NCBI GenBank assembly: GCA_964510805.1
Contig: CAZEDG010000002.1
Span: 7,653-71,652 of the forward strand
DNA: 64,000 bases
Source: an uncultured Candidatus Saccharibacteria bacterium
Lineage (GTDB): Bacteria > Patescibacteriota > Minisyncoccia > Phycocordibacterales > UBA5272
Direction of reading: 5' to 3'
Every line of letters begins with the position of its first letter. Position 1 is the stretch's first letter. The notes under the pieces are model-generated. The model was given only the letters and a program-made list of their open reading frames with translations. It ran no database searches and was not told where the DNA came from. This document shows positions 686-23,312 of this stretch, in pieces. The translations under genes were made by a program, and so were the position numbers.

Positions 686-935
686 CAACCAAAAGGGCCA
701 GATGTTAGAAGTTAGACTTTAGATGTTAGAAAATACAGATAAGTTAATAGTTTGTAGTTAATGGTTAATTGTAGAGAAAGAGGAGTGAGGAGCAAAATAC
801 AAGTTAATAGTTTATGGTTAATAGTTACTGGTAAATACAGGAACACAAGAGCGAGGCCGAAGGCCTCGCTCGTGTGTGTGTTGTGTTTTTATCTAAACTC
901 TAAAGTCTAACTTCTAACATCTAGAGGCTACCTAG
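686..935. repeat. MITE-like palindromic intergenic element, copy E1. Inverted AT-rich arms at 694-716 and 908-932; central GC hairpin at 849-871.
   Basis: The arm agatgttagaagttagactttag is the reverse complement of ctaaagtctaacttctaacatctag. The centre is gagcgaggcc-gaag-ggcctcgctc. It also contains ttaatagttaatgg-type subrepeats. Confidence 0.8.
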
Positions 936-2688
936 TCTTCGCCTCTGCGACACCAATCACTGATTCTTTGAGTGCAACAATCACTGAAGTAAGTGATTGT
1001 TTTGCGCTATCTAGAATAGCACTGAAGTTAAGGTTAACCGCTGGTGGGGTGGCAGGGACAACATCGAATGAAAGACCTCCAACATCAGTGTCATAATCTT
1101 GTGTATGCAGAGTATGGCCAGGAAACCCATACCAGTAATAACTAAGTGTTTGTCGTGTACCAAGTGTATGAGTTCCCGCCGAAGCTGGTGCAGTTAAACT
1201 AAAACTAAATGGAAGAGTATATATATCACCAGAACCAACAAATGTCGGGGAACCGAGATTGCCAGTATTTACAAAAAATAATCCTGGAGGTGGGTTACCA
1301 GCATCAAATGTCGAATTATACGCACCATCACAGTCCCCTTCATCAGAACCTCCATAACCCGCATCTGTTTCGAGCAAAAGACTTCCTGATACTGTCATAG
1401 AATCTCCTGGAGCATAAGTTGGGTTCGTGCCGATAGATATTGTACACCAAAAAGAAATCTCACCCATTCTCCCCCATGTCGAAGAATAAAGAGTAAGCGC
1501 CTCCCCCTTCCCCACCGACATCATACTCATCGCAAGGAAAAACATAGATACTGATGCAACCTTTGCAAGCTTGCCACCTGATACTTTGCGAATAATAAGT
1601 GAAGCGATAATGATAAGAGCAAGTACAGCAATAAGGATATACATAAGTGTTGTGTTATTAGATTGTGGAGTAACTTCTTTCTTAGCAACACGAATCACGG
1701 AGAAGTTATCGGTCTTCTGGTCGAGACGATTGTTATCTTTGTCAAAGAGAGCAAGCGTAATTGTACCCTCCTTACATGTCGCCTTAAGTGTATCTTCGAT
1801 CACAGGAGTATCAAGATCTTTGTGTCCTTGGCCACACGGTGCACCACTCTTGTCCTTAAGCGTATACGTTGCTTTTGACCCCTTAAAAGGAGAAGCTCGT
1901 ACTGTAGCAACAAGGTTGAGTCCGTCTTTACCTTCGGTAACAGCAAGACTCTTAATGATTCCGTATGCACCAGGAACAAATATGTTAGTAAGACTTGTCT
2001 CCTTGGTCTTCTCATCCTTCACTACGAACACTCCACGCTTCACATCACTCTTAAGTGTAAAAGTCTTAGTCTCTCCTTTCTTAACCGTTGTTGTAGCAGA
2101 GAGAAGCGCTGTAGGACTAAAGAGTGCTTCATACTCGGCATAAGAGATTGACGCATCAGCTTTGAAGGTACAGGTTACCTTAAGAGCATCTTTTACTTGA
2201 GCACAATCAATGATAGTGCTTGTATTCTTAGGAACAAGATCCTTTGCAAGAATAGACACAGAGTATCTAAGTCCAGCATCACTCTCAGCAACGAGAAGCA
2301 CTTGTACCTTAGACGCATTAAGAGGAGGAAGGGTGTAGGTAAAAGGCTTGTAGATCATCTCTCCTTCCTTAAGAGAAGGAACAATGCCAAGCCTCTCATA
2401 CGAAATCTGCTTATGGGTAGTCGTGTCCACAACCACAATACCGTACCCTATACCATTCTGCATTCCCATATTGCTCATGATATTGAATCCTCCAGTGTAG
2501 GTACCGTTGGATTCCTTGAAGGTAACATCAACCACACGTACATCAGCAATAACTGATACTTTTGTCTTAGACACCGCACCTGACGGTGGTTGAGGGGCTC
2601 TTGTTTGTTGTGCCGGCGCTTGCGCATACACAAACGATGTTGCTAATAATAGGTAGGTAGAAATAATAAAGGTTGTGGACTTTTTCAT
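928..2688 (-). CDS. Secreted/surface protein of unknown function, copy A (586 aa). It has a signal peptide and a central transmembrane segment.
   Basis: Long ORF. The N-terminus MKKSTTFIISTYLLLATSFVYAQAP looks like a signal peptide. It has a hydrophobic helix MYILIAVLALIIIASLIIRKV and a Gly/Ser/Thr-rich C-terminal domain. The + and - ORFs nested inside are shadow ORFs. Confidence 0.7.
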   Translation of the reverse strand: MKKSTTFIISTYLLLATSFVYAQAPAQQTRAPQPPSGAVSKTKVSVIADVRVVDVTFKESNGTYTGGFNIMSNMGMQNGIGYGIVVVDTTTHKQISYERLGIVPSLKEGEMIYKPFTYTLPPLNASKVQVLLVAESDAGLRYSVSILAKDLVPKNTSTIIDCAQVKDALKVTCTFKADASISYAEYEALFSPTALLSATTTVKKGETKTFTLKSDVKRGVFVVKDEKTKETSLTNIFVPGAYGIIKSLAVTEGKDGLNLVATVRASPFKGSKATYTLKDKSGAPCGQGHKDLDTPVIEDTLKATCKEGTITLALFDKDNNRLDQKTDNFSVIRVAKKEVTPQSNNTTLMYILIAVLALIIIASLIIRKVSGGKLAKVASVSMFFLAMSMMSVGKGEALTLYSSTWGRMGEISFWCTISIGTNPTYAPGDSMTVSGSLLLETDAGYGGSDEGDCDGAYNSTFDAGNPPPGLFFVNTGNLGSPTFVGSGDIYTLPFSFSLTAPASAGTHTLGTRQTLSYYWYGFPGHTLHTQDYDTDVGGLSFDVVPATPPAVNLNFSAILDSAKQSLTSVIVALKESVIGVAEAKTR

Positions 2689-2699
2689 ACTACTTAGTA

Positions 2700-2920
2700 T
2701 ATATGGAAGAAGATAAGATTAACGAGGAAGTTGTACACAGATGGTAATGAGAGTGAAGAATGAAGTTAAACTAGATGTTAGAAAAGCGGATAACAGACCG
2801 CTCCGCTACAGACAACAGATAATAGACAATACACACGAGCGAGGCCGAAGGCCTCGCTCGTGTGTGTGTTGTGTTTTTATCTAAACTCTAAAGTCTAACT
2901 TCTAACATCTAGAGGCTACC
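2700..2920. repeat. MITE-like element, copy E2. It has a variant left arm (acagataacag type). The hairpin at 2837-2859 and the right arm at 2896-2920 are identical to E1.
   Basis: gagcgaggccgaaggcctcgctc followed by ctaaactctaaagtctaacttctaacatctag is identical to 849-932. The left part carries a gcggataacagaccgc palindrome. Confidence 0.7.
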
Positions 2921-4676
2921 TAGTCTTCGCCTCTGCGACACCAATCACTGATTCTTTGAGTGCAACAATCACTGAAGTAAGTGATTGTTTTGCGCTATCT
3001 AGAATAGCACTGAAGTTAAGGTTAACCGCTGGTGGGGTGGCAGGGACAACATCGAATGAAAGACCTCCAACATCAGTGTCATAATCTTGTGTATGCAGAG
3101 TATGGCCAGGAAACCCATACCAGTAATAACTAAGTGTTTGTCGTGTACCAAGTGTATGAGTTCCCGCCGAAGCTGGTGCAGTTAAACTAAAACTAAATGG
3201 AAGAGTATATATATCACCAGAACCAACAAATGTCGGGGAACCGAGATTGCCAGTATTTACAAAAAATAATCCTGGAGGTGGGTTACCAGCATCAAATGTC
3301 GAATTATACGCACCATCACAGTCCCCTTCATCAGAACCTCCATAACCCGCATCTGTTTCGAGCAAAAGACTTCCTGATACTGTCATAGAATCTCCTGGAG
3401 CATAAGTTGGGTTCGTGCCGATAGATATTGTACACCAAAAAGAAATCTCACCCATTCTCCCCCATGTCGAAGAATAAAGAGTAAGCGCCTCCCCCTTCCC
3501 CACCGACATCATACTCATCGCAAGGAAAAACATAGATACTGATGCAACCTTTGCAAGCTTGCCACCTGATACTTTGCGAATAATAAGTGAAGCGATAATG
3601 ATAAGAGCAAGTACAGCAATAAGGATATACATAAGTGTTGTGTTATTAGATTGTGGAGTAACTTCTTTCTTAGCAACACGAATCACGGAGAAGTTATCGG
3701 TCTTCTGGTCGAGACGATTGTTATCTTTGTCAAAGAGAGCAAGCGTAATTGTACCCTCCTTACATGTCGCCTTAAGTGTATCTTCGATCACAGGAGTATC
3801 AAGATCTTTGTGTCCTTGGCCACACGGTGCACCACTCTTGTCCTTAAGCGTATACGTTGCTTTTGACCCCTTAAAAGGAGAAGCTCGTACTGTAGCAACA
3901 AGGTTGAGTCCGTCTTTACCTTCGGTAACAGCAAGACTCTTAATGATTCCGTATGCACCAGGAACAAATATGTTAGTAAGACTTGTCTCCTTGGTCTTCT
4001 CATCCTTCACTACGAACACTCCACGCTTCACATCACTCTTAAGTGTAAAAGTCTTAGTCTCTCCTTTCTTAACCGTTGTTGTAGCAGAGAGAAGCGCTGT
4101 AGGACTAAAGAGTGCTTCATACTCGGCATAAGAGATTGACGCATCAGCTTTGAAGGTACAGGTTACCTTAAGAGCATCTTTTACTTGAGCACAATCAATG
4201 ATAGTGCTTGTATTCTTAGGAACAAGATCCTTTGCAAGAATAGACACAGAGTATCTAAGTCCAGCATCACTCTCAGCAACGAGAAGCACTTGTACCTTAG
4301 ACGCATTAAGAGGAGGAAGGGTGTAGGTAAAAGGCTTGTAGATCATCTCTCCTTCCTTAAGAGAAGGAACAATGCCAAGCCTCTCATACGAAATCTGCTT
4401 ATGGGTAGTCGTGTCCACAACCACAATACCGTACCCTATACCATTCTGCATTCCCATATTGCTCATGATATTGAATCCTCCAGTGTAGGTACCGTTGGAT
4501 TCCTTGAAGGTAACATCAACCACACGTACATCAGCAATAACTGATACTTTTGTCTTAGACACCGCACCTGACGGTGGTTGAGGGGCTCTTGTTTGTTGTG
4601 CCGGCGCTTGCGCATACACAAACGATGTTGCTAATAATAGGTAGGTAGAAATAATAAAGGTTGTGGACTTTTTCAT
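2916..4676 (-). CDS. Secreted/surface protein, copy B. It is 100% identical to the protein encoded at 928..2688.
   Basis: The ORF-track translation is identical over all 586 aa. Nucleotides 2837-4733 are identical to 849-2745. Confidence 0.7.
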   Translation of the reverse strand: MKKSTTFIISTYLLLATSFVYAQAPAQQTRAPQPPSGAVSKTKVSVIADVRVVDVTFKESNGTYTGGFNIMSNMGMQNGIGYGIVVVDTTTHKQISYERLGIVPSLKEGEMIYKPFTYTLPPLNASKVQVLLVAESDAGLRYSVSILAKDLVPKNTSTIIDCAQVKDALKVTCTFKADASISYAEYEALFSPTALLSATTTVKKGETKTFTLKSDVKRGVFVVKDEKTKETSLTNIFVPGAYGIIKSLAVTEGKDGLNLVATVRASPFKGSKATYTLKDKSGAPCGQGHKDLDTPVIEDTLKATCKEGTITLALFDKDNNRLDQKTDNFSVIRVAKKEVTPQSNNTTLMYILIAVLALIIIASLIIRKVSGGKLAKVASVSMFFLAMSMMSVGKGEALTLYSSTWGRMGEISFWCTISIGTNPTYAPGDSMTVSGSLLLETDAGYGGSDEGDCDGAYNSTFDAGNPPPGLFFVNTGNLGSPTFVGSGDIYTLPFSFSLTAPASAGTHTLGTRQTLSYYWYGFPGHTLHTQDYDTDVGGLSFDVVPATPPAVNLNFSAILDSAKQSLTSVIVALKESVIGVAEAKTR

Positions 4677-4739
4677 ACTACTTAGTATATATGGAAGAAG
4701 ATAAGATTAACGAGGAAGTTGTACACAGATGGAAGGAGG

Positions 4740-4852
4740 TAACTAGATGTTAGATATTAGATATTAGACTTTAGATATTAGAAAATACAGATAAGTTAAT
4801 AGTTAATAGTAAACACAAGAACACAAGAGCGAGGCTGTAGGCCTCGCTCTTT
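4740..4852. repeat. MITE-like element, copy E3. This is a half element: a left arm and a hairpin with a tgta loop, with no right arm.
   Basis: ctagatgttagatattagatattagactttagatattagaaaatac ... gagcgaggctgtaggcctcgctc at 4827-4849. Confidence 0.65.
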
Positions 4853-5122
4853 GAAGTTAAGAAACCAGAGGGCTTGCCTCTCTGTTTCAATCGGGATTAA
4901 CCCATTTGTATTCTCAGTATATATCTTACAAGGTATTTGTCGAATTACTATTCTTCTCCTATTTTATCTTCTCCTATTTTAAAATAGTTTTCATAATATC
5001 GAGATTAAGTAAAAAAGCCCCCAACGAAGACGGAACTTCATAAGGGTCTTTTTCGTAGTGATGTAGGTAGTATACACCTATTTAGAAATAAAAAAGGATA
5101 TTCCACATGCTACAATAAAAAT

Positions 5123-5617
5123 ATGAAAAATAACTATGCTTTTATAGATAGTCAAAATGTTTATCTTTCTGTAAAAGAACAAGGGTGGCAAATAGACTGG
5201 AAAAAATTTCGTATTTATTTACGTTTTAAATATAATATTTCAAAAGCATATTTATGTATTGGTTATATTGAAGGTAATAGTGATCTTTACAAAGAATTAC
5301 AAGAAGCTGGTTTTATTTGTATTTGGAAAACAGTTTTAAAATATAAAGATGGAATGATTAAAGGAAATGTAGACGCAGAACTAGTTCTTAATACTATGAT
5401 TGAAAAAGATAATTTCAACAAGGCTGTTATTATTTCTGGTGATGGAGATTTTTTTTGTTTAATTGAACACCTTCTAAAAATAAATAAACTAGAAAAATTA
5501 CTTATACCTAACAAACAAAAATATTCTGCACTTCTTAAAAGAAAAGATATACGTGGTCACACAGACTTTATAAGTGATTTAAAAAATAAAATCGGCAATA
5601 CTAGAGCTAAAAAATAA
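5123..5617 (+). CDS. NYN-domain (LabA/NYN PIN-like) putative ribonuclease.
   Basis: FIDSQNVY ... GNVDAELVLNTM ... ISGDGDF follows the NYN/LabA acidic-residue pattern. The region is very AT-rich (about 28% GC) compared with its neighbours. Confidence 0.6.
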   Translation: MKNNYAFIDSQNVYLSVKEQGWQIDWKKFRIYLRFKYNISKAYLCIGYIEGNSDLYKELQEAGFICIWKTVLKYKDGMIKGNVDAELVLNTMIEKDNFNKAVIISGDGDFFCLIEHLLKINKLEKLLIPNKQKYSALLKRKDIRGHTDFISDLKNKIGNTRAKK

Positions 5618-5621
5618 AAAA

Positions 5622-5658
5622 AGGACCTTTCAGGCATATCATGCGTCCTGAAAGGTTA
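5622..5658 (+). terminator. Intrinsic terminator hairpin after the NYN gene.
   Basis: ggacctttcagg-catatcatgcgt-cctgaaaggt followed by tatcctttt. Confidence 0.55.
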
Positions 5659-5763
5659 TCCTTTTCGTTGGTGATATGTAAAGTATATCTAAATATAAAA
5701 CAATGTCAAGAATTACAAAACATAGAGAACATAAGAAGTCGACAAAAGCGTTAAGAAAAGCAC

Positions 5764-5792
5764 TTGACAAAACAAAAGGATTCGTGTATAAT
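5764..5792 (+). promoter_or_regulatory. Perfect sigma70 consensus promoter: TTGACA, 17-nt spacer, TATAAT.
   Basis: ttgaca at 5764-5769, a 17-nt spacer, and tataat at 5787-5792. It lies about 135 nt upstream of the GC-rich lipoprotein ATG at 5927, which has the SD gaaaggagg. Confidence 0.6.
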
Positions 5793-5926
5793 CTACTACA
5801 GACCTTGTTGGCTTTTCTGATAGCAATGTCTAAGAAGCCAAAAGGAGTCCTTCACAAGATATTCGCAAGAATATCGCGTGGAGTTCCTGCAATTTCTCAA
5901 TTTTCCAACTTCGAAAGGAGGCCACA

Positions 5927-6854
5927 CATGGCCACGTTCATCCGTCGCACCTTCGGCGCGACTCACTCCCTCATTGCAAAGATCCTTGTGATCTTCGCGC
6001 TGGGGATGATCCTCGTCGCCTGCGGTGGTGGCGGGTCCTCGACCCCGACGACCCCCACTCCGCCGGTCAAGACCCCGGTCGCCGGCGACTTCACGATGAC
6101 CCAGAACCCGTCGAACGGAGCAACCGGTGTCGCCGTGAACGTCAAGCCGACGATCACGATCAACGTGAAGGCCGGTACCTATGCCTCGGCGTCTTCGACC
6201 GAGACGTGCGCCGGGCAGACCGTCGAATCGGCGTTTGTTGCGCCGACAGTCTTCACCGGCACGGTTGAGCTTGCCTTGGTCAACAAGGCAAACTTGCCGT
6301 ATGCCACGACATGCGCGTGGAACGGCTCGGTGACTGTCGCTGGGATTGACGGTGGAGCTTCCTCCACCCAAAACTTCAGCCTCAGTTTCACCACCGAGAA
6401 CTGGTGGCCACCCAAGAAGGTGCTCGAGATCGGCGTGAAGGGTGGCGACACCCCTCCGCAAGAGATCCCGATGGAGACCAATCCGACCAACACCCCCGCC
6501 ATCGGCGGTGATGTATGGAAAGCGAAGGTTGCCGACACCACTATCCAAGGGTTCAAAGTTGGCATGAAGTTGACAGGCGTCAACAATGATGAGCTGTACG
6601 GCATGGTCTTTGTCAACCCATTGACGAAAAACCGTTGTGTTGCTCTTGTTTACGCGAAGGATGGTACCAGTATCTTCCAGGATCCTCGCAACTACGGAGG
6701 ATGCAGGACAACTATGTTCGATGCTTGGTGGGGAACCTCTGATGGGTATATCCTGCGTTACCCTTCACTCAGTAATCGCTGTTACAAGACAGTTTTCGTA
6801 CCCTCAAACGGTGGTTTCCAAGAAATCCTTCCTGACGTTCCTTGCCCAAATTAA
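5927..6854 (+). CDS. High-GC lipoprotein, probably acquired horizontally. It has a lipobox (LVAC), a Pro/Thr linker and Ig-like beta-rich domains.
   Basis: Start MATFIRRTF...ILVIFALGMILVACGGGGSSTPTTPTPPVKTP. GC is about 60% over 5927-6700 against a genome background below 40%. The ORF-track start at 5703 is rejected because the promoter and the AT-rich leader lie inside that extension. Confidence 0.65.
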
Positions 6855-6998
6855 GATCTGACCCAATAGTTAGATCTGACGCGCTATCTTCACCGATGGC
6901 GCGTTTCTTTTTATAAATAAGTGAATAACTGTACTTCATGATACTTATATGGTGCTATACTCCTTGTATAGCTTCTATATTTTTACTAATCACAATTT

Positions 6999-9900
6999 TT
7001 GTACATTAACATGATGAATTTTATTAACAAAGTTTTCCTGGGAAGTATGTTTGTAATCGCATTACTTCTTCTGTCATCTCATATTGAAATAGTCTATGCA
7101 GGCAATACAAAAACTGCAACATATGGAGACCCTCTACAACTTAACTATAATACTTCTGGAGTAAATAGTTGTAACAATATAGATGTTCCTGGAGGTGGCG
7201 GGTATGCACTAAATGGATCAGTTTCAGCAAACTCTTCGGGTAATTTTGATCCTGGCAACGCTTCTGTTGGTGGTATTTTTACTCTTACTTGTATAGCCAC
7301 AAACGGATCAGGCCCAGCGTCAGACTCTGCCACCCTCACCGTTAACCCTCTCTCTTGTTCCCCTGGTCAATACACCACAGGATCATCGTGTGTTAATTGT
7401 GGTCAAGGATACTACTGTCCCGGAGGAACAACAGCTCGACAAAATTGTGAACCAGGATATTACTGTCCAGGGACAACCGAATCAGATCACACCCCTTGCT
7501 TAGGAGGATGGTCATCTGGATGGAATTCTACCGTATGTAACCCACCATCATGTTACGCTGGAGAGTACTGGGGAGGTTCCTCGTGTCTCACTTGTACAGC
7601 AGGTAACTACTGTCCAGGAGATCAAACCTCTCACCCTTGTGCCGATGGATATACTTCTTCAGGAGGAGCGTCGAGCTGTTCTCCTCGTTGTACTCCAGGT
7701 AACTACTGGACCGGTGGATCAGGTGGATCCTGTGCAACATGCCCTCAAGGAAAAACATGTGATGGTACCACTACTCAGACACCCTGTCCTGCAGGAAAGA
7801 TATGTGATCTAGGTACTGCTCCTGGTGGCGGAACTCTCTGTACTGTAGGAAACTACTGTCCGTCTGGCACAACCCCTGGAGGAGGAGTTCAACCGCCACA
7901 AGCGTGCGGTGGCGGAATGACTTCTAACCCTGGTGCCACCAACTCTAGTCAATGTTTCCTCCCAAGTTGTTCTCCTGGGCAATACCTCAACGCTTCTTCT
8001 TGTGAGCAATGTACCGCAGGATACTGGTGTGATGGAAGTGGTTCACGTACTCCATGTTCAGCAGGAACATACTGTCCAGCAGGGACAGAACCAAGTGGAG
8101 TAAACGGTCCAAAAACATGCCCTCAAAATAGTTACTGTCCTGCACAATCAGGATCCCCTACTTCATGTGAAACTGTTGGTGCCGGATATGTAACCAATAG
8201 TGGAGGCGCAACCAACGCAGGACAATGTCACGCGCCGTCGTGTACTTCAGGTGACTATTGGAACGGATCATCCTGTACCACGTGTACCGCAGGATACTAT
8301 TGTGATGGAACAAGCGGAGGAAGAACTCCATGTCCGGAAAAATTCTATTGTGGACCAGGGACTACAGAACCAACTAATCCATCTAATCCTCCTCGGACAT
8401 GTACCGCTGGATATATGTGTGACGCAGGTACCACAGACTCTGGGGCAGGAAGTCCTACTCCATGTACTCAAGATCACTTCTGTACGGGGGGAAACTCAGG
8501 TCCAAGTGGATCAAACCCTCCAACGGCCTGCTCAACAATTGGTACGGACTTTGTAACAACTGGAACAGGCGCGACAGCGTCTACTGATTGTCATTTGCCA
8601 TATTGTCCATCTGGTAACTACTGGAATACAGGTACTCATGCTTGCGCTACTTGTCCAGAGGGAAAAATCTGTGACGGAACAAGTGCACCTCAACCATGTA
8701 CAGCAGGATATTATTGTCCAGCAGGAACAAAACCAAGTGGTGTAGATGGTCCAAGGAACTGTCCGGTAGGATCATGGTGTGATGGAAATGACGGTAGTGG
8801 TGGCGGTAACACTTCTAATAATGGTGGCTACCCTCCGCAACCATGTTTAGGAGGACTTACTTCTCCAGAAAACTCTATTTCTTCTGGTGCATGTCGTCCA
8901 CCGACATGTCCTTCTGGAGAATACTGGAATAGCACCGCTAGTTCATGTAAACCATGTACTTCTGGTAATTACTGTGGTGGAGATGGAACACAAACTCCAT
9001 GTCCTCCAGGATTCGTATGTGGTCCAACTACAACACAACCAGGTGGAACAAACCCGCCACACTCATGTCCTGCAGGATCTTCCTGTCCTGGTGGAAACAC
9101 CGATCCGGCAGACACTGACACTAACACCAATCCGCCTATCGTCTGTACTGCTAACCACTACTGTCCAACGGGACCAATTATTACCGATCCAGGAACAGAT
9201 AACCCTCTTCCTTGTCCAGAAGGCAAATGGTCAACCGTTGGATCTTCACAACTATCTGACTGTCAGTCATCTAACCCAAGTGGGCCAGACTTAACTATTG
9301 ATACTATCTATCCAACAACTGTGACATCAGGTGTAATGACTACCTTCTATACCACCATTGAGAACAGAGGTACGACTAATACCGGGGCATCATTCTATAA
9401 CCTTGTGTACTTTGCAGATCAAACAGATGGCAATGGAACTATTTCTACAACAACTCCATACAACGGTCTCTACCCTGCATACTATACCGGCAAGATGGGA
9501 ATACTTGGGGTAAGCGAAGCGACAACAACATCAGCACGTCACGCATTCACTGCACCTGGATCAGTAAAATTCTGTACAGACAAGCAAAACCAAAATGATG
9601 CGACCGGGCTTGTAAACGAAGGAACAGGAGAAAACAACAACTGTACCGGATGGATCAATATCGCCATCTCAGGAGTAAGTTCTTGTTCCCCTGGAATGTA
9701 TAACAACGGCAGTTGTGTTGCTTGTCCTCCAGGTAACTTCTGTTCAGGAGGAACTACTCCTTCCCCATGTCCTTCTAACACCTACTGTGACGGTGCTGGC
9801 CCTGGCGGAATCGGTAACACCCCTCCTGGTGGAATCTATCCTCCTGTATCATGTAGTGGTGGATTCGTCTCTCCGCAAGGATCAGGTAGTTCAGGATCTT

Positions 9901-10910
9901 GTGTCTCAGGCGGATCGCCATCTGGTACCCTTACCTCATCATCTAACTCATGTACTATTGCAACAGAAGACTCAACATGTGATGTAACCATGAGCTGGTC
10001 AACCAACTCACCTGTTGGTACAACAGAACTTATTCGCGACGGGCAGGTTGGAGCTCCTATTCCTGACGCTGTTGGTAATAACGTCTCTGATCAACTGATC
10101 CATGTTCCATACGAATCAGATGGTACAGTAGTCTACCAAATCTATAACAACAGTACGTCTCTTGCTTCGAAGTCAATCAATGTAAGTTGTGAGGCCGGAG
10201 CAAACAAATATGATACAGTATCAGGAACATGTGCTGACCCACAAGTGAACGGACTCATTGTAAGAGGTAACTACTATGATGACCCTGGTCATATCGAGTT
10301 CAAGTGTGGAGGATCAGATTCATACGAAGTAAGAATGGATCCAACTGGAGCAAACACTCTTGTACCTGGAGGAAGCGGAGTAAGTACTGGCGATAATCAA
10401 CTTCACAGTGTTTCGGTAAGCACAACACAGGATTATAAAATCATTTGTAAAAAAGGAAGTGTCGAAAAAACAATGACTACATCCTACACAAACCCAGCAG
10501 ACCGCCCACAGGTCGCACTCTCCTTCACCGCCGTGCCTAAGACTATTGAAGTTGGTGGCAAGGTAGTACTCAACTGGGATATCACCTATCCTGCACCTGC
10601 GTGTGTAATGACTGCACAAGTAGTATGTCCTAATGGTACCTGTAACCAGACACTGACAAGTTACCAGGCAGAGCTTAATGCAATGATTCAGTCAGGAAGA
10701 GTTGACCAAGTAGCAGGAAGTCAAACAACTCCAAGAACTATCGCGTCTTCTATCAGTACCGTAACCCCTGGTCACGAAACCACTGATCAGAAAGCAATCG
10801 GCAAGAAGACACTCAGTTCTGTACAAGGAACCACCGACTTCACGATTGACTGTGGAGGGAACAAGAAAGCATCTACTCGTGTCCGTGTTACAAGTAGCAA
10901 GGAGAACTAA
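6999..10910 (+). CDS. Giant secreted cysteine-rich repeat protein (1303 aa). It has about 20 CxxGxYC-type repeats of the ephrin-receptor-like/GCC2-GCC3 style, and C-terminal beta-rich (CARDB/Ig-like) domains.
   Basis: N-terminal signal/TM FLGSMFVIALLLLSS. Reiterated C-SPGQY..GSSC..C..GYYCPGGT units. PDLTIDTIYPTTVTSGVMTTFYTTIENRGTTNTG is CARDB-like. Confidence 0.7.
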   Translation: MYINMMNFINKVFLGSMFVIALLLLSSHIEIVYAGNTKTATYGDPLQLNYNTSGVNSCNNIDVPGGGGYALNGSVSANSSGNFDPGNASVGGIFTLTCIATNGSGPASDSATLTVNPLSCSPGQYTTGSSCVNCGQGYYCPGGTTARQNCEPGYYCPGTTESDHTPCLGGWSSGWNSTVCNPPSCYAGEYWGGSSCLTCTAGNYCPGDQTSHPCADGYTSSGGASSCSPRCTPGNYWTGGSGGSCATCPQGKTCDGTTTQTPCPAGKICDLGTAPGGGTLCTVGNYCPSGTTPGGGVQPPQACGGGMTSNPGATNSSQCFLPSCSPGQYLNASSCEQCTAGYWCDGSGSRTPCSAGTYCPAGTEPSGVNGPKTCPQNSYCPAQSGSPTSCETVGAGYVTNSGGATNAGQCHAPSCTSGDYWNGSSCTTCTAGYYCDGTSGGRTPCPEKFYCGPGTTEPTNPSNPPRTCTAGYMCDAGTTDSGAGSPTPCTQDHFCTGGNSGPSGSNPPTACSTIGTDFVTTGTGATASTDCHLPYCPSGNYWNTGTHACATCPEGKICDGTSAPQPCTAGYYCPAGTKPSGVDGPRNCPVGSWCDGNDGSGGGNTSNNGGYPPQPCLGGLTSPENSISSGACRPPTCPSGEYWNSTASSCKPCTSGNYCGGDGTQTPCPPGFVCGPTTTQPGGTNPPHSCPAGSSCPGGNTDPADTDTNTNPPIVCTANHYCPTGPIITDPGTDNPLPCPEGKWSTVGSSQLSDCQSSNPSGPDLTIDTIYPTTVTSGVMTTFYTTIENRGTTNTGASFYNLVYFADQTDGNGTISTTTPYNGLYPAYYTGKMGILGVSEATTTSARHAFTAPGSVKFCTDKQNQNDATGLVNEGTGENNNCTGWINIAISGVSSCSPGMYNNGSCVACPPGNFCSGGTTPSPCPSNTYCDGAGPGGIGNTPPGGIYPPVSCSGGFVSPQGSGSSGSCVSGGSPSGTLTSSSNSCTIATEDSTCDVTMSWSTNSPVGTTELIRDGQVGAPIPDAVGNNVSDQLIHVPYESDGTVVYQIYNNSTSLASKSINVSCEAGANKYDTVSGTCADPQVNGLIVRGNYYDDPGHIEFKCGGSDSYEVRMDPTGANTLVPGGSGVSTGDNQLHSVSVSTTQDYKIICKKGSVEKTMTTSYTNPADRPQVALSFTAVPKTIEVGGKVVLNWDITYPAPACVMTAQVVCPNGTCNQTLTSYQAELNAMIQSGRVDQVAGSQTTPRTIASSISTVTPGHETTDQKAIGKKTLSSVQGTTDFTIDCGGNKKASTRVRVTSSKEN

Positions 10911-10954
10911 GGCTAGTAATTCGTTATTAGTTATTCGTAATTAGTAAATACTAA

Positions 10955-11240
10955 TATAACAAAAGAGCGAGGCCTTCGGCCTCGCTCTTGTGTTATATTC
11001 TGCATTTTATCTTCATTCTTCATGCTTCATTCCTCTTTCTCTACCATTAACCATTAACTATAAACTATTAACCTTGTATTTTGCTCTTCATTCTTCATGC
11101 TTCATTCCTCTTTCTCTACCATTTACCATTCACTATAAACTCTTAACTTATCCGTATTTTCTAATCTCTAAAGTCTAACGTCTAATATCTAGTGTCTAGT
11201 GTCTAACCTCTAATATCTAAAGTCTAATATCTAGTCTTCC
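10955..11240. repeat. MITE-like element, copy E4, in opposite orientation (cttc loop). It has an internal tandem duplication of about 65 bp and an extended right arm.
   Basis: Hairpin gagcgaggccttcggcctcgctc at 10965-10987. Two tandem copies of cattcttcatgcttcattcctctttctctaccattaaccattaactataaactattaacc at about 11022-11150. ctaaagtctaacgtctaatatctag-type repeats at 11168-11235. Confidence 0.75.
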
Positions 11241-11293
11241 TCCCCTCTTCATTCTTCACTCTTCTCTCGTATCTTCTATGGTATACTTTTCTC

Positions 11294-11665
11294 ATGTTCA
11301 ACATCTGGCCATACTTACTTCGTCTTGCGGTAGCACTGTACTTCATCTACCCTCACGCGCTTGCCCTTTCTGAGGGTGTTAAGAAGGCCCGCATGGCTCT
11401 TTTCGAATGTCTCTATCAATCAATCAAGATCTCCGAAACTGTCACCTTCACCCTATGGCATGCATTCTTCATCTTTCTTGGTGTGCTTGTACTCATCTGG
11501 CCACGACCGATACTCCCTCTCCTTGTAGTACTTATTGTCCTTGCTTCCACACTCTACATTAACTTCTCTACTGGTAACTTCACAAGCGCAAACATGCTCA
11601 TCTTTGTCCTTATCTTAGTCACCCTCGCACTCATGATCTACAATGCACGACCACAGTTCAGATAG
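11294..11665 (+). CDS. Small multi-pass membrane protein, hypothetical.
   Basis: The ORF is 123 aa with 3-4 hydrophobic helices. Confidence 0.5.
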   Translation: MFNIWPYLLRLAVALYFIYPHALALSEGVKKARMALFECLYQSIKISETVTFTLWHAFFIFLGVLVLIWPRPILPLLVVLIVLASTLYINFSTGNFTSANMLIFVLILVTLALMIYNARPQFR

Positions 11666-12528: not shown

Positions 12529-15189
12529 GTGCAACTTAACTCAGAAGTAGCTTTACTTTCAAGACTAACCAAAGATCATGCATCTGGTCTTGCTCGTCTT
12601 TCGATTACCACAATCAAGGATTTGCTTTTTCACTTTCCTGTTCGTTATGCTGACATGCGAGAGATTGGAAGTACAAAGACACTTGCAAAAGGAGAAGCGG
12701 TTACACTCTTTGGCATACTCGAGAAGGTCACCGTCAAGCGAAGCTTCCGTGGCCATATTCCCATGACCGAAGCCAGGCTTCGTGATGCATCAGGAACACT
12801 TCGTCTTGTATGGTTCAACCAAGCCTACATTGGCAAGATGTACACCGATGATACAAAAGTAAAGATTCAAGGCATTATCCAAGAAGACTCGCGAGGATTC
12901 TTCTTGACCAACCCTAGCATAGAAAAGATACAAGCAATCCCAGAGCCAACTGAGAGTCTCTTTACAATAGATATAAGCGAAGACGGAAAATCAAAAGAAC
13001 AAGAACCTCTCTTCCTCACCCCTGTCTATCCAGAAACAAAAGGAGTTTCTTCGCTCTACCTCTACACACTTATCAAAAAAATTTTTACAAGTAATCTCAT
13101 AGACACACTAGAGGATCCAATACCAGAGGATATTCTCAAGAAGCTTCATCTTCCATCACTCAAAGATGCTCTCACGTATATACATTTTCCTAAAGAGCAC
13201 ACTCATACAGTTATAGCGAGAAAGCGATTTGCCTTCGAGGAGATCTTCTACCTTCAGATAAAACAAAACAAAGAAAAACAGGAAGCAAAGAACTCTCTTG
13301 CGTATCCAATCACTGTACAAAAAAAAGAGCTGAAGGAATTCATGGAGAGGTTTCCTTTTACACCAACACAGGGGCAATATAACGCAATTGACTCCATACT
13401 CTCTGATCTCAAGAAGACCGAGCCAATGGGAAGACTTCTTGAAGGAGATGTTGGAAGTGGCAAGACATTCGTCGCTGCGACTGTTGCATATATGACACTC
13501 CTTCATGCAAATGAAAGCTCTGGTAAGAGACTTCAGGTTGCTTACATGGCACCAACTGAGATACTCGCCAAGCAACACTTCGAGAGCTTCATAACCTATC
13601 TCCAGGGTACCGGTATCGAGATCGGACTTCTCACAGGATCCGGGTGCAAAAAATACCCAAGCAAAGGAGGAGATGAAGTAACCAATATATCAAAAGCACA
13701 GCTTCGCACATGGCTTCATGATGGCCGTGTCTCTATCGTCATAGGTACTCATGCGCTTATCCAAAAGACAATTACCTTCGACTCTCTCGCGCTCATCATT
13801 ATCGATGAACAGCATCGCTTCGGTGTTAAGCAACGTAAACTCTTAGCGCAGAAAGGACGCAGAAATAACGCAGAACAAGCGGAACAAGTAGAAGAATATA
13901 ACCATACTCTTCTTGATGAAAAAAAATCCAATCTTCTCTATGAGACTACAACATATACATTACGCGAAGCATTGTTTACAATAAAAAAAGAACTAGGCGG
14001 TGGCCACAAAGAGATAATCTACGAAAGAGCACTTGAAGAAGAACTAACACGAAAAGGAATACGTTTTTCTCGTCAAGTATCTCTACCTGTCCTATATCGT
14101 GATAAGCAAATTGGAACCTATAGACCTGACTTTATCATTGAAGATAGTATAATTCTTGAATTAAAAGCATTATCTTTTATTGGAGCAGAAGCAAAAAAAC
14201 AACTTTGGACTTATCTAAAAAATACAAAATATTCACTTGGTATTTTAGTGAACTTTTCTCCTACAGAATTACAAATTCAAAGAGTTGTGTACGACACAGC
14301 AAGAACTTCTTCCGCGTCAGTTCCGCCCAGTTCTGCGGTGTCTGCATATAAAATCCCTCACCTTCTCTCAATGACCGCAACACCTATTCCACGCACACTT
14401 GCGCTCACCATGTTCGGGGATCTTGATCTTACTGTGCTTGATGAAGTGCCAAAGGAACGCAAGCGTATCATAACCGAAATTGTACGATCATCTAAACGAA
14501 AAGAAATCTACGAAAAAGTGCGCGAAGAGTTACGAAGTGGTCGCCAAGTGTATGTTATTTGTCCACGTATCGAAGAGGATGACGAAGCGCTTGCAGATAA
14601 GCAAATGCTACGAAGTGTAAAAGAAGAAGCAAAGCGATTAAGTGATACTGTCTTCCCAGAATATGTGATCGATATCCTTCACAGCAAAATGAAGAAAGAA
14701 GAAAAAGAAGAAGTGATGCAAGATTTTCTTGATAAAAAATCAGATATCTTAGTTGCAACCTCAGTGGTTGAAGTTGGAGTGAATGTGCCGAATGCTTCTG
14801 TGATTATTATCGAGCACGCTGACCGCTTCGGCCTTGCACAGCTTCATCAGTTACGTGGTCGCGTCGGAAGAGCAGAACATCAATCATACTGTTACCTCTT
14901 CACCGAAGGAGTAAGTGAAGTTACGTATAACAGACTTATCTCTTTAGTAAAAGCAAAGAACGGCTTCGAGTTAGCTGAGATGGACATGCTTGCACGCGGT
15001 ATCGGCACCTTAAATGATGGCAAGCAATGGGGGCTAAGTGACTTAGCAATGGAAGCAATCAAGAATCCTAAGCTTGTTGAGATTGCACAACAAGAAGCAA
15101 AGTTACTCATAGAAAAAGATACAAGTCTTAACAATCACCCTCACCTTCGCGACCACATCAAGACACACAGTGATGTGCATATGGAGTAG
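12529..15189 (+). CDS. recG: ATP-dependent DNA helicase RecG carrying an in-frame GxxExxY-family PD-(D/E)XK domain insertion.
   Basis: LLFHFPVRYADM wedge-region motif. Helicase motif I GDVGSGKTFVA, motif II IIIDEQHRFG and motif III MTATPIPRTL. VATSVVEVGVNVP and QLRGRVGR are also present. An extra segment of about 167 aa lies between motifs II and III. Confidence 0.85.
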   Translation: MQLNSEVALLSRLTKDHASGLARLSITTIKDLLFHFPVRYADMREIGSTKTLAKGEAVTLFGILEKVTVKRSFRGHIPMTEARLRDASGTLRLVWFNQAYIGKMYTDDTKVKIQGIIQEDSRGFFLTNPSIEKIQAIPEPTESLFTIDISEDGKSKEQEPLFLTPVYPETKGVSSLYLYTLIKKIFTSNLIDTLEDPIPEDILKKLHLPSLKDALTYIHFPKEHTHTVIARKRFAFEEIFYLQIKQNKEKQEAKNSLAYPITVQKKELKEFMERFPFTPTQGQYNAIDSILSDLKKTEPMGRLLEGDVGSGKTFVAATVAYMTLLHANESSGKRLQVAYMAPTEILAKQHFESFITYLQGTGIEIGLLTGSGCKKYPSKGGDEVTNISKAQLRTWLHDGRVSIVIGTHALIQKTITFDSLALIIIDEQHRFGVKQRKLLAQKGRRNNAEQAEQVEEYNHTLLDEKKSNLLYETTTYTLREALFTIKKELGGGHKEIIYERALEEELTRKGIRFSRQVSLPVLYRDKQIGTYRPDFIIEDSIILELKALSFIGAEAKKQLWTYLKNTKYSLGILVNFSPTELQIQRVVYDTARTSSASVPPSSAVSAYKIPHLLSMTATPIPRTLALTMFGDLDLTVLDEVPKERKRIITEIVRSSKRKEIYEKVREELRSGRQVYVICPRIEEDDEALADKQMLRSVKEEAKRLSDTVFPEYVIDILHSKMKKEEKEEVMQDFLDKKSDILVATSVVEVGVNVPNASVIIIEHADRFGLAQLHQLRGRVGRAEHQSYCYLFTEGVSEVTYNRLISLVKAKNGFELAEMDMLARGIGTLNDGKQWGLSDLAMEAIKNPKLVEIAQQEAKLLIEKDTSLNNHPHLRDHIKTHSDVHME
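13950..14300 (+). other. GxxExxY (PDDEXK_3-like) nuclease-fold domain embedded in RecG.
   Basis: GGGHKEIIYERALEEELTRKGIRFSRQVSLPVLYRDKQIGTYRPDFIIEDSIILELKA...LGILVNF matches the GxxExxY family architecture: G-x-x-E-x-x-Y, then D...(D/E)xK. The segment is more AT-rich than the flanking recG sequence. Confidence 0.7.
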
Positions 15190-15194
15190 CTGGA

Positions 15195-15365
15195 AACTAG
15201 ATGTTAGATATTAGACTTTAGAGATTAGAAAACACGGATAAGTTAATGGTTAATAGTTAATGGTTAATAGTAAATACAAATACACAAAGAGCGAGGCCTT
15301 CGGCCTCGCTCTTGTATTTGTATTTTTATCTAGAGCCTAAAGTCTAATATCTAACATCTAGTTTA
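15195..15365. repeat. MITE-like element, copy E5. It is complete: left arm, hairpin at 15289-15311 and right arm at 15337-15361.
   Basis: ctagatgttagatattagactttagagattagaaaacac ... gagcgaggccttcggcctcgctc ... ctaaagtctaatatctaacatctag. Confidence 0.8.
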
Positions 15366-23309: not shown

Positions 23310-23312
23310 AGG

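What the first reader, a model, noticed from the sequence alone, without database searches (positions are those of the whole stretch)
4860..6900. Composite foreign island: AT-rich NYN-domain gene followed by a high-GC lipoprotein gene under a textbook sigma70 promoter
Two adjacent genes show opposite compositional anomalies. The NYN (LabA/PIN-like) putative RNase gene at 5123-5617 is about 28% GC. The lipoprotein gene at 5927-6854 is about 60% GC over its first 770 nt, decaying toward the 3' end, and has a high-GC-organism style signal, lipobox and PT linker (ILVIFALGMILVACGGGGSSTPTTPTPP). The lipoprotein is preceded by a perfect TTGACA-17-TATAAT promoter (5764-5792) and the strong SD gaaaggagg, an unusually ideal expression context for this genome. 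The island sits between a half MITE-like element (E3) and the giant Cys-rich protein gene. This suggests recent horizontal acquisition, possibly a chimeric gene whose 5' part was captured from a high-GC donor, and active expression. NYN nucleases are recurrent components of defence and RNA-processing systems.
Basis: partly seen in the sequence, partly recalled or inferred. Interest (0 to 1): 0.65.

Follow-up and report, generated by a model that had tools for sequence, protein, structure and literature searches.

The report
Imported surface lipoprotein allele beside NYN RNase
In a small-genome (Patescibacteria-like) bacterium, a surface lipoprotein gene at a conserved position carries the codon usage of a high-GC organism, so it was probably swapped in from another phylum; the AT-rich NYN nuclease gene next to it is a separate accessory gene.

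Summary
NYN ORF 5123-5617 has 24.8% GC and GC3 0.12 (-3.8 sd). The lipoprotein ORF (true ATG 5928, stop 6854) has 57% GC and GC3 0.70 (+6.7 sd), against GC3 0.33 for 48 other ORFs. TTGACA-17-TATAAT at 5764-5792 is the only perfect match in 64 kb.

It is not one composite island.

- The lipoprotein is a positional orthologue. Sister Patescibacteria contigs keep lipoprotein, giant CARDB/Cys-rich protein, 123-aa protein and RecG in that order. Each has a near-consensus promoter and a 125-215 nt leader.
- Flanking genes are 65-85% identical. The lipoproteins are 20-32% identical and fall into three deep subfamilies.
- The window's allele is closest to a gene on a 70%-GC contig: 52% overall, and 84% nucleotide identity over 75 nt.
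- It uses host-rare codons. Ribosomal protein genes have normal GC3, so high expression does not explain this.
- The last ~35 codons look host-like, which fits a mosaic gene.
- In sister strains the gene is broken just after the lipobox, where it joins a fragment of an 11-kb circular 56%-GC plasmid-like element.

The best reading is allele replacement by cross-phylum transfer at a hypervariable surface locus. NYN is a separate, widespread accessory RNase gene. Interest is moderate.

The parts
4740..4853 (.). Intergenic repeat element: TAGATATTAGA-type short repeats plus a hairpin, AAGAGCGAGGC...GCCTCGCTCTT. It marks the left edge of the unique DNA that carries NYN.
   Evidence: BLAST of 4677-5122 against the window finds at least 6 further copies at 700-930, 2689-2918, 10926-11243, 15192-15363, 16265-16348 and 23310-23468. 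The hairpin is also reported as a terminator-like site.
5123..5617 (+). NYN/LabA-like (PIN-type) predicted endoribonuclease, 164 aa. It is AT-rich: GC 24.8%, GC3 0.12.
   Evidence: Pfam PF01936, E=6.5e-11, 43.4 bits against a cut-off of 24.2. More than 7,900 homologues, 60-83% identical, occur in Paceibacterota/Parcubacteria, Saccharibacteria, Ignavibacterium and Emticicia. D9, N12, D84, G106-D107-G108-D109 are invariant in a 12-sequence alignment.
5616..5665 (+). Hairpin followed by T-rich sequence, between NYN and the lipoprotein unit. Probably the NYN terminator.
   Evidence: Inverted repeat I8: arms 5616-5634 and 5647-5665, 79% complementary, 12-nt loop.
5764..5792 (+). Consensus sigma-70 type promoter, TTGACA-17-TATAAT. 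GC is host-like.
   Evidence: 12/12 match. It is the only perfect match in the window. Equivalent TTGACA-16/17-TATAxT promoters sit upstream of the homologues in L009, L012, L013, L019 and L021.
5799..5927 (+). Inferred 5' leader of about 130 nt, ending in SD GAAAGGAGG (5913-5921). There is no Rfam match and no consensus structure. It lies inside the stop-free in-frame stretch 5703-5927 that gene callers add to the ORF.
   Evidence: Sequence. No Rfam hit near any gathering score. RNAalifold predicts 0 pairs on 4 leaders. Leader GC is 0.40. The transcription start is inferred, not shown.
5928..6038 (+). Type II (lipoprotein) signal peptide MATFIRRTFGATHSLIAKILVIFALGMILVAC plus GGGGS. The Cys codon is 6021-6023. 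Position 6038 is the breakpoint at which sister-strain contigs switch to plasmid-derived DNA.
   Evidence: Translation. L001 and L004 are identical to the window up to 6038 and then diverge. An 8-nt core GCGGGTCC is shared by the window, L001 and the circular element L017.
6039..6398 (+). PT-rich linker and Ig-like beta-sandwich domain (residues about 50-157). This is the hypervariable part of the family. GC3 is 0.80.
   Evidence: AF2 model with a 26-sequence alignment: mean pLDDT 86, above 90 over this domain. Foldseek hits to the LdtMt2 Ig-like domains and CopC, E 4e-5 to 6e-4. Pfam Big_5 is sub-threshold: E=0.0016, 19.6 bits against 23.6.
6399..6854 (+). Conserved C-terminal domain of the family: WWPP...IGG..W...TG..LTG...C..LVY..DG...GGC.T..FD...GT.DG.I...P...C......CP. 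It has four conserved Cys and no known family. GC3 falls from 0.84 to about 0.4 along it.
   Evidence: Family alignment. No Pfam hit at E<=1. No PDB sequence hit. 84% nucleotide and 92% amino-acid identity to the 70%-GC homologue over residues 166-190. The tail (residues 273-307) is closer to the Patescibacterial L009 gene.
6878..6913 (+). GC-rich hairpin plus T-run: intrinsic terminator of the lipoprotein gene. It marks the right edge of the GC-rich block.
   Evidence: Terminator scan: 11 pairs, 6 of them GC, tail TCTTTTTATA. GC down-shift change point at about 6905.
6999..10910 (+). Giant Cys-rich/CARDB-like surface protein gene, the conserved downstream neighbour of the lipoprotein. GC3 is host-like at 0.30.
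   Evidence: Weak CARDB hit. tblastn homologues lie downstream of the lipoprotein homologue in L009, L013, L019 and L021.

Best explanation
The segment holds two independent units in the variable cell-surface neighbourhood of a Patescibacteria-like genome of about 40% GC.

(1) A stand-alone NYN/LabA-type PIN-fold RNase gene with its own terminator. It is an accessory gene from a very widespread, strongly conserved and intrinsically AT-rich family. It sits in the slot upstream of the lipoprotein promoter, which in sister genomes holds PemK or HicAB RNase toxin genes.

(2) A strongly expressed surface lipoprotein gene. It consists of a consensus promoter, a leader of about 130 nt, a strong SD, a Lgt/LspA-type signal peptide with lipobox LVAC, a G4S/PT linker, an Ig-like domain, and a conserved disulfide-containing C-terminal domain of unknown fold family.

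The gene's position is ancestral. It lies directly upstream of the giant CARDB/Cys-rich protein, the 123-aa membrane protein and RecG. The allele in that position is replaced over time. In this genome, about 830 bp from the SD to roughly codon 275 was imported from a high-GC lineage. It recombined under the resident promoter and leader, and near the 3' end into the resident gene's conserved C-terminal domain. The result is a mosaic.

The same gene in sister strains has recombined, right after the lipobox-G4S codons, with an 11-kb circular 56%-GC plasmid-like element. That shows high-GC mobile DNA physically reaches this locus.

Shown: the composition, the synteny, the phylogenetic incongruence and the two alleles.

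Inferred: the direction and mechanism of import, surface exposure, high expression, RNase activity, and that the window and the sister contigs are Patescibacteria.
For: Composition and codon usage:
- Lipoprotein GC3 is 0.70 against 0.33 +/- 0.055 for the host.
- It prefers codons that are rare in the host. Lipoprotein/host use, in %: CCG 48/11, GCC 42/6, GTC 43/8, TCG 33/7, CTG 19/2, TGC 71/9.
- Ribosomal protein genes S6, L11 and L1 have GC3 0.31-0.36. High expression therefore does not raise GC3 in this genome.

Closest relative:
- The best of only 53 hits among 1.84 billion representatives is P0001, at 52% identity.
- P0001 lies on a 70%-GC contig and has its own lipobox.
- Nucleotide identity reaches 84% over residues 166-190.

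Synteny:
- L019/L020, L021 and L013 place the family member upstream of giant-protein homologues. L019-L021 also carry the 123-aa protein (77% identical), RecG (65-75%) and FtsH (85%).
- The lipoproteins at that position are only 20-32% identical.
- They fall into three deep subfamilies in an NJ tree. The window groups with the 70%-GC sequence.

GC switch: about 5917 at the SD and about 6905 after the terminator. Promoter and leader are host-like.

Mosaic tail: residues 276-308 are 47% identical to the Patescibacterial P0123 but 23% to P0001, with host-like GC3.

Not an assembly artefact:
- L002 spans 4782-7246 at 100% identity.
- L003 and L005 cover the left junction.
- The 383-aa ORF is on record for the 79.7-kb NCBI contig.

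Second allele:
- L001 and L004 carry the same junction at 6038.
- L001 2190-4197 matches L017 825-2834 at 98.6%.
- L017 is circular (77-nt terminal overlap) and 56% GC. It encodes Prim-Pol/D5_N, a tyrosine integrase and ParA.

NYN:
- Pfam hit above the cut-off, with invariant acidic residues.
- It is AT-richer than its flanks in L007, L008 and L013 as well.
- It is absent from the equivalent slot in L019 (PemK) and L021.
Against: - All Patescibacterial positional orthologues examined also have raised GC3 (0.52-0.62 against 0.26-0.37). In every case the GC-rich block coincides with the CDS. That is awkward for independent imports with random breakpoints. It could instead indicate a process limited to the CDS, either selective or conversion-driven.
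- The true donor has not been sampled. 52% protein identity to P0001 is not a recent donor-recipient pair.
- The mosaic-tail signal rests on about 30 residues.
- The family also occurs with lower GC3 than its host (L022: 0.44 against 0.65). The direction of transfer is therefore not settled.
- The taxonomic assignment of the window and of L006 is inferred, not demonstrated.
- L001 and L004 may come from the same sample, so allele B may rest on one library assembled twice.
Confidence: 0.6

Rival explanations
1. The compositional bias is intrinsic and limited to the CDS. The lipoprotein is vertically inherited and evolves fast. Its high GC3 is maintained in this gene family by GC-biased gene conversion at a recombination hot spot, or by selection on the mRNA. 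Such selection could favour resistance to AU-preferring RNases, including the NYN, PemK and HicA enzymes encoded just upstream.
For: - Five Patescibacterial positional orthologues all show raised GC3, with the same 5'-to-3' decline.
- The GC block is co-extensive with the CDS in each.
- The family members are so diverged (20-40% identity) that a single old import would have ameliorated.
- RNase genes lie directly upstream in three genomes: NYN in the window, PemK in L019/L020, and HicA in the L013-L016 contigs that carry the same lipoprotein.
Against: - The neighbouring giant protein is equally fast-evolving but has host-like GC3 of 0.30-0.32.
- The window's allele is far closer to a gene in a 70%-GC contig than to its positional orthologues, with 84% nucleotide identity locally.
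- The codon preferences are a general GC shift towards host-rare codons.
- In a 55%-GC background the family member is GC-poorer than its host. That fits a mobile gene better than a host-specific bias.
Confidence: 0.22
2. NYN and the lipoprotein together form one recently acquired composite foreign island that brought its own ideal promoter.
For: - The two compositional outliers are adjacent and lie between a repeat element and the giant gene.
- The NYN family is spread across phyla at more than 60% identity, which suggests mobility.
Against: - The lipoprotein position, the promoter type and the long leader are conserved in sister genomes that lack NYN at this spot.
- The two genes deviate in opposite directions and are separated by a terminator and host-like DNA.
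- NYN is AT-rich in every genome examined.
Confidence: 0.08
3. This is an assembly artefact. The GC-rich block was stitched into a Patescibacterial contig from a co-occurring high-GC organism.
For: - The window comes from a metagenome-derived contig.
- The same community yields contigs in which the gene's 5' end continues into unrelated high-GC DNA (L001, L004).
Against: - The block is embedded, with host DNA on both sides.
- L002 spans both junctions at 100% identity. L003 and L005, from other datasets, agree.
- Sister genomes have a homologue at the same place.
- The allele B junction shares only 8 identical bases with the plasmid, too few for a de Bruijn graph join.
Confidence: 0.03

Closest known systems
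LabA/DUF88 NYN-domain proteins (Pfam PF01936)
   Same: Single-domain protein of about 160 aa. The Pfam score is above the gathering threshold and the PIN/NYN acidic residues are conserved (D9, D84, D107, D109).
   Different: No function is known for this Patescibacteria-dominated subfamily. No partner gene (antitoxin or defence component) was found next to it. GC3 of 0.12 is unusually low even for its host.
Replacement-type flexible genomic islands for cell-surface structures, such as O-antigen or capsule loci with persistently atypical GC. This comparison is from general knowledge and was not tested here.
   Same: The chromosomal position is conserved and the flanks are conserved. The occupants are extremely divergent or non-orthologous between close relatives. 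The composition deviates from the genome in every strain.
   Different: Here the unit is a single lipoprotein CDS rather than a multi-gene glycan cluster. The deviation is towards high GC in a low-GC genome. The promoter and leader stay resident.
Variable surface lipoproteins of Mollicutes (Vsp/Vlp type). This comparison is from general knowledge.
   Same: A fixed expression region and lipoprotein signal peptide is joined to a highly variable mature part. The host is a reduced-genome, surface-dependent organism.
   Different: There is no multi-copy cassette array or invertible promoter. tblastn finds no second family copy in the 64 kb. Variation is seen between strains and genomes, not shown within a cell.
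Small Prim-Pol/P4-type primase plasmids and integrative plasmids of Gram-positive bacteria, such as the 8.4-kb Thermaerobacter plasmid NZ_CP037897.1 and Streptomyces plasmids
   Same: The element recombined with this gene in sister strains (L017) encodes a Prim-Pol/D5_N primase-helicase. It is 34% identical to the Thermaerobacter plasmid protein over 98% of its length. The element also encodes a tyrosine integrase and ParA, and it is circular at about 11 kb.
   Different: Relatives are only 28-34% identical and its host is unknown. Only about 2 kb of the element is seen joined to the chromosome. The junction lies about 2 kb from the integrase gene. It could therefore be microhomology-mediated capture rather than att-site integration.
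Big_5 / SbsA-type bacterial Ig-like domains (PF13205)
   Same: The N-terminal mature domain is a beta-sandwich. It carries the P..NGATGV...I.I motif, and the alignment covers profile positions 10-105 of 105.
   Different: The score is below the Pfam cut-off (19.6 against 23.6 bits). The attached C-terminal domain has no Pfam or PDB relative.

Membership tests
NYN domain (PF01936, LabA/DUF88) | Match to the family HMM above the curated gathering score | tested here: met
   43.4 bits against a cut-off of 24.2, E=6.5e-11, residues 7-127 on profile positions 5-124 of 145.
NYN domain (PF01936, LabA/DUF88) | Conserved acidic residues of the PIN-like active site: N-terminal D, central D, and the GDGD motif | tested here: met
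   D9, N12, D84, G106-D107-G108-D109 are invariant in a 12-sequence alignment that includes a 44%-identical member.
NYN domain (PF01936, LabA/DUF88) | Metal-dependent ribonuclease activity | not testable with these tools
   Needs biochemistry.
Anti-phage defence system component (PADLOC families) | Significant match to a defence-system HMM, with the system's partner genes adjacent | tested here: not met
   Only weak hits: HEC-09 E=1.4e-4 and NYN E=4.4e-4 over part of longer profiles. No partner genes were found. The neighbours are a repeat element and the lipoprotein.
Type II toxin-antitoxin toxin | Small adjacent antitoxin gene in an operon with the nuclease | tested here: not met
   ORFs of at least 40 aa in the NYN flanks 4854-5122 and 5618-5700 were listed. 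On the NYN strand these are only two overlapping AT-rich ORFs of 43 and 45 aa (4851-4982, 4906-5043). They were not searched against any family library and do not look like genes. The slot holds PemK or HicBA in sister genomes, but that is positional evidence only.
Bacterial lipoprotein (Lgt/LspA substrate) | N-terminal basic n-region, hydrophobic h-region, and lipobox [LVI][ASTVI][GAS]C | tested here: met
   MATFIRRTF...ILVIFALGMILVAC: lipobox L-V-A-C with Cys32, followed by GGGGS. The ACGGGG motif is present in most of the 26 aligned family members and in every full-length member that keeps its signal peptide.
Bacterial lipoprotein (Lgt/LspA substrate) | Lgt and LspA present in the genome, and lipidation shown | not tested
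   Not searched for in the window. Lipidation needs experiment.
Big_5 bacterial Ig-like domain (PF13205) | HMM match above the gathering score | tested here: not met
   E=0.0016, 19.6 bits against a cut-off of 23.6, though the match runs nearly the full profile length. The fold is Ig-like by AF2 and Foldseek. It is a resemblance only.
Horizontally acquired gene (compositional plus phylogenetic criteria) | Codon usage significantly different from the host's and not explained by expression level | tested here: met
   GC3 is +6.7 sd. Host-rare codons dominate. Ribosomal protein genes have GC3 0.31-0.36.
Horizontally acquired gene (compositional plus phylogenetic criteria) | Gene tree incongruent with the flanking core genes, and nearest relative in a distant lineage | tested here: met
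   Over the C-terminal domain the window's allele is 63% identical to the gene on the 70%-GC contig L006. It is 20-30% identical to the positional orthologues L019 and L021, whose RecG, 123-aa protein and FtsH are 65-85% identical. The taxonomy of L006 is inferred from GC alone.
Horizontally acquired gene (compositional plus phylogenetic criteria) | Absence from the same position in close relatives (a true insertion) | tested here: not met
   A family member occupies the same position in L013, L019/L020 and L021. This is allele replacement, not a novel insertion.
Site-specific integration of the 11-kb element (tyrosine recombinase att site) | Identical core shared by attB, attP and the junction; both junctions (attL and attR) present; whole element inserted | tested here: inconclusive
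   An 8-nt identical core GCGGGTCC lies within an imperfect match of about 24 nt. Only one junction is seen. L001 follows the element for about 2.0 kb and then departs into sequence found neither in the element nor in the window.

The most novel reading that the evidence does not exclude
The locus is a fixed expression and secretion platform: a consensus promoter, a long leader and an SD, always upstream of the giant surface protein gene. Coding cassettes of a rare, GC-rich and so far unannotated lipoprotein family are repeatedly swapped into it. These cassettes are shared between Patescibacteria and higher-GC bacteria, possibly their hosts. Small high-GC plasmids such as the 11-kb element seen recombining at the lipobox would act as vehicles. 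If so, the lipoprotein allele and the plasmid would be molecular tracers of which host a given episymbiont lives on.
Probability: 0.2. Interest if true: 0.75.

Novelty: new member of a known kind. Interest (0 to 1): 0.45.

Why it matters

This locus gives three things:
- a surface lipoprotein whose coding region carries high-GC codon usage and whose best relative is in a 70%-GC bacterium;
- strain-level evidence that a 56%-GC circular replicon recombines with the same gene;
- a rare two-domain lipoprotein family with no annotation, confidently modelled by AlphaFold2, that always sits next to the giant Cys-rich surface protein.

Together they offer a concrete and testable handle on gene flow between an episymbiont and higher-GC neighbours, and on the turnover of its cell surface. 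The general phenomenon, horizontal replacement of surface genes, is well known.

Tried and rejected
Searches that found nothing:
- Genome contigs scanned with the lipoprotein alignment: no relative.
- Genome contigs scanned with NYN: only 2 loci, and the source genome was not found.
- Viral contigs scanned with the lipoprotein, with the 419-aa plasmid protein and with NYN: nothing.
- Metagenome contigs scanned with the exact 27-mer of the leader and lipobox region, and with a 6-sequence alignment: nothing. That collection evidently lacks the relevant samples.
- A profile search of the 5.8-billion-cluster database with the 26-sequence alignment returned only 3 proteins, probably because poly-Gly words swamped the candidate list.
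- blastn of the allele B DNA against phages: no match.
- Rfam search of 4600-7100: nothing near any gathering score.
- RNAalifold on four leaders: no consensus structure.

Ideas rejected:
- High GC3 as translational optimisation of a highly expressed gene. Ribosomal protein genes have normal GC3.
- The 383-aa ORF starting at 5703 as the real protein. The promoter lies inside it, the SD and ATG are at 5913-5930, and homologues start at the signal peptide.
- A significant direct repeat flanking NYN as a cassette boundary. It is only about 70% identical over about 45 nt of AT-rich DNA, and the gapless motif search found nothing.
- Silent paralogous cassettes for antigenic variation. There is no second copy in the window.
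- A DGR mechanism. No reverse transcriptase was seen among the window ORFs that were scanned, but the window was not searched exhaustively.
Full report

Yes. The window averages about 40% GC.

- The NYN ORF 5123-5617 has 24.8% GC and GC3 0.12.
- The lipoprotein ORF has 57.1% GC and GC3 0.70. GC3 is 0.80-0.90 through about codon 180 and falls to 0.43 and 0.22 in the last two bins.
- Measured against 48 other ORFs of at least 120 aa (GC3 0.330 +/- 0.055), the two genes lie at -3.8 and +6.7 sd.
- GC change points are at about 5917 and about 6905.
- TTGACA-17-TATAAT at 5764-5792 is a 12/12 match and the only perfect one in 64 kb.
- The SD GAAAGGAGG is at 5913-5921.
- The ATG is at 5928, not 5927.
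- A GC-rich hairpin with a T-run follows at 6878-6913.
- NYN passes the Pfam gathering threshold.

**2. NYN**

The protein has more than 7,900 relatives, most of them 60-70% identical. The named ones are Paceibacterota, Minisyncoccia, Parcubacteria and Zambryskibacteria. Others come from Emticicia, an Ignavibacterium MAG and a Saccharibacteria MAG.

The PIN/NYN acidic residues are invariant, so the protein is probably an active RNase.

The gene is AT-richer than its flanks in the three other genomes examined. Low GC is therefore a family habit, although GC3 of 0.12 is extreme.

NYN is followed by its own hairpin. PADLOC gives only weak hits, and no antitoxin-like partner is visible.

In sister genomes the equivalent slot upstream of the lipoprotein promoter holds other genes:
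- PemK in L019/L020;
- NYN of another subfamily (46% identical) followed by HicB-HicA in L013;
- nothing in L021.

I read NYN as an independent accessory gene in a small hot spot for nuclease and toxin-type genes. It is not part of the lipoprotein unit.

**3. The lipoprotein family**

No Pfam, NCBIfam or PHROG family matches. An exhaustive HMMER scan of 1.84 billion representatives finds only 53 relatives.

Members share four features:
- a lipobox followed by poly-Gly (L.ACGGGG);
- a Pro/Thr linker;
- a hypervariable N-terminal domain;
- a conserved C-terminal domain of about 150 aa with four conserved Cys.

With a 26-sequence alignment AlphaFold2 gives mean pLDDT 86. The N-terminal domain is an Ig-like sandwich. 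It gives Foldseek hits to the LdtMt2 Ig domains and CopC, and Big_5 is just below threshold. The C-terminal domain has no Pfam or PDB-sequence relative. Foldseek gave nothing specific for it.

**4. Position is conserved, occupant is not**

Contigs carrying family members show the same neighbourhood as the window.

- L019/L020: PemK, lipoprotein, 1,678-aa giant protein, 123-aa protein, IVP-like protein, RecG with a PDDEXK_3 insert, Ddl.
- L021: lipoprotein, CARDB protein, 123-aa protein, RecG, FtsH.
- L013: NYN, HicBA, lipoprotein, giant protein.

By tblastn the window's 123-aa protein, RecG and FtsH are 77%, 65-75% and 85% identical to those loci. The lipoproteins are only 20-32% identical.

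In an NJ tree of the C-terminal domain the positional orthologues fall into three deep subfamilies. The window's allele pairs with P0001 (63% over this domain), which lies on a uniformly 70%-GC contig.

Nucleotide identity to that gene reaches 84% (92% amino-acid identity) over residues 166-190.

This is incongruent with vertical descent. It fits allele replacement at a hypervariable surface locus.

**5. The expression context is native**

The homologues in L009, L012, L013, L019 and L021 each have TTGACA-16/17-TATA(A/C/G)(T/C) followed by a 125-215 nt leader and a strong SD.

In the window the promoter and leader have 37-40% GC, which is host-like. The switch to high GC occurs at the SD.

The 'textbook promoter' is therefore a conserved trait of this gene, implying high expression. 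It is not a signature of foreign DNA.

The leader has no Rfam match and no detectable conserved structure.

**6. Why the high GC?**

Expression level does not explain it. S6, L11 and L1 have GC3 0.31-0.36, while the lipoprotein prefers codons the host rarely uses: CCG, GCC, GTC, TCG, CTG and TGC.

The 3' decline in GC3 is shared with the 70%-GC homologue (0.91, 0.84, 0.66 by thirds) but is steeper here. In addition, the last ~35 residues resemble a Patescibacterial homologue more than P0001 (47% against 23%; 54% against 31% at nucleotide level), with host-like GC3.

That suggests a mosaic. A tract of about 830 bp was imported, from the SD to about codon 275, and joined to a resident 3' end.

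One observation does not fit comfortably. Every Patescibacterial orthologue examined has raised GC3 (0.52-0.62 against 0.26-0.37 for neighbours), and the GC-rich block always coincides with the CDS. In a 55%-GC background (L022) the family member is GC-poorer than its host (0.44 against 0.65).

Either the family is continually exchanged among hosts of different GC, or a process limited to the CDS maintains its composition. I favour the first and keep the second as the main rival at 0.22.

**7. A second allele and a plasmid**

L001 (JGI 3300045345) and L004 (SRR23702464) are 100% identical to the window from 3994 to 6038. They then switch, in frame, immediately after the ...LVACGGGGS codons, to different high-GC DNA.

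That DNA matches positions 825-2834 of L017 at 98.6%. L017 is a 10,996-bp circular contig (77-nt terminal overlap) of 56% GC. It encodes a Prim-Pol/D5_N primase-helicase, a tyrosine integrase, ParA and membrane proteins. L018 is an 82%-identical relative.

The three sequences share only an 8-nt identical core, GCGGGTCC, within an imperfect match of about 24 nt. That is too short for a de Bruijn graph artefact. It is compatible with either att-type recombination or microhomology-mediated recombination.

Only one junction is visible. L001 leaves the element after about 2 kb and ends in low-GC sequence absent from the window.

The primase's nearest plasmid relatives (28-34% identical) are from Thermaerobacter and Streptomyces.

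Whatever the mechanism, high-GC mobile DNA reaches exactly this gene in this population.

**8. Artefact check**

- L002 (SRR12487046) spans 4782-7246 at 100% identity.
- L003 (ERZ4216102) and L005 (JGI 3300045348) agree across the left junction. L003's apparent 30-nt gap is a run of N.
- The 383-aa ORF is recorded on the 79.7-kb NCBI contig.

**9. Verdict**

The segment is not a composite island. It is an accessory NYN RNase gene next to a conserved, strongly expressed surface-lipoprotein locus. The current allele at that locus is most likely a mosaic import from a high-GC lineage.

The phenomenon, horizontal replacement of surface genes, is of a known kind. The new elements are an unannotated protein family, the cross-GC exchange in a CPR-like genome, and the plasmid junction. 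Interest is 0.45.

Noticed in passing
window 12529-15189 (+): RecG carries an inserted PD-(D/E)XK nuclease domain between its helicase lobes (PDDEXK_3, aa 474-586, E=1.8e-33). The same insert is in the L019/L020 orthologue (881 aa). It is absent from the L021 orthologue (734 aa).
   Followed up: partly
window 928-2688 and 2916-4676 (-): Two tandem genes of 586 aa, about 98% identical, encode secreted or membrane proteins. Differences between strains (window against L001) cluster in 3883-3993, which suggests a variable patch or conversion between the copies.
   Followed up: partly
window ~4740-4853; also 700-930, 2689-2918, 10926-11243, 15192-15363, 16265-16348, 23310-23468: An intergenic repeat family made of TAGATATTAGA-type short repeats plus a GC-rich hairpin (MITE-like or terminator-bearing). 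Copies occur in both orientations.
   Followed up: partly
L013 ~6660-6800 and L012 ~400-560: About 11 copies of TCCGCRT, spaced 11 nt apart (one helical turn), lie immediately upstream of the -35 box of the lipoprotein promoter in two sister contigs. They look like an array of regulator binding sites. The window has no such array.
   Followed up: no
L017 1-11073 (JGI 3300020577); related L018: A circular, plasmid-like element of 10,996 bp and 56% GC. It encodes a Prim-Pol/D5_N primase-helicase, a tyrosine integrase, ParA, a lipobox-bearing 138-aa protein, and a 419-aa membrane protein with a C-terminal zinc ribbon. A 2-kb piece is fused to the window's lipoprotein gene in sister strains.
   Followed up: partly
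window 11294-11665 (+): A conserved 123-aa polytopic membrane protein gene, 77% identical in L019 and L021. It is the second-strongest positive GC3 outlier in the window (0.54, +3.8 sd). It has no Pfam family.
   Followed up: no
window 15590-15663 (-): A tRNA-Ile gene with anticodon TAT (UAU). From general knowledge this is uncommon in bacteria, which usually read AUA with a lysidine-modified CAU tRNA.
   Followed up: no
L006 ~925-945: In the 70%-GC homologue, a run of about 13 G directly after the lipobox Cys codon breaks the reading frame. It is either a homopolymer sequencing error or a slipped-strand phase-variation tract.
   Followed up: no
window 5703-5927; L013 6596-6949; L012 318-716; L019 10001-10348: The DNA upstream of the real start codon is free of in-frame stop codons for 75 to about 133 codons in several family members. 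Gene callers therefore predict long N-terminal extensions that contain the promoter. The TCCGCRT arrays explain part of this; the rest is unexplained.
   Followed up: partly
L022 232-3729 (-): A family homologue in a 55%-GC contig lies near an RT-Cas1 fusion gene (1,165 aa). In that contig the lipoprotein is GC-poorer than its neighbours (GC3 0.44 against 0.65).
   Followed up: no
window 5048-5092 and 5651-5695: Imperfect direct repeats of about 45 nt and about 70% identity (CTTTT.CGT.GTGAT.TGTA..AGTATA...) follow hairpins on both sides of the NYN gene. A related ...AGTATAC motif precedes the lipoprotein upstream region in L013 and L019. The signal is weak and its significance is unclear.
   Followed up: partly
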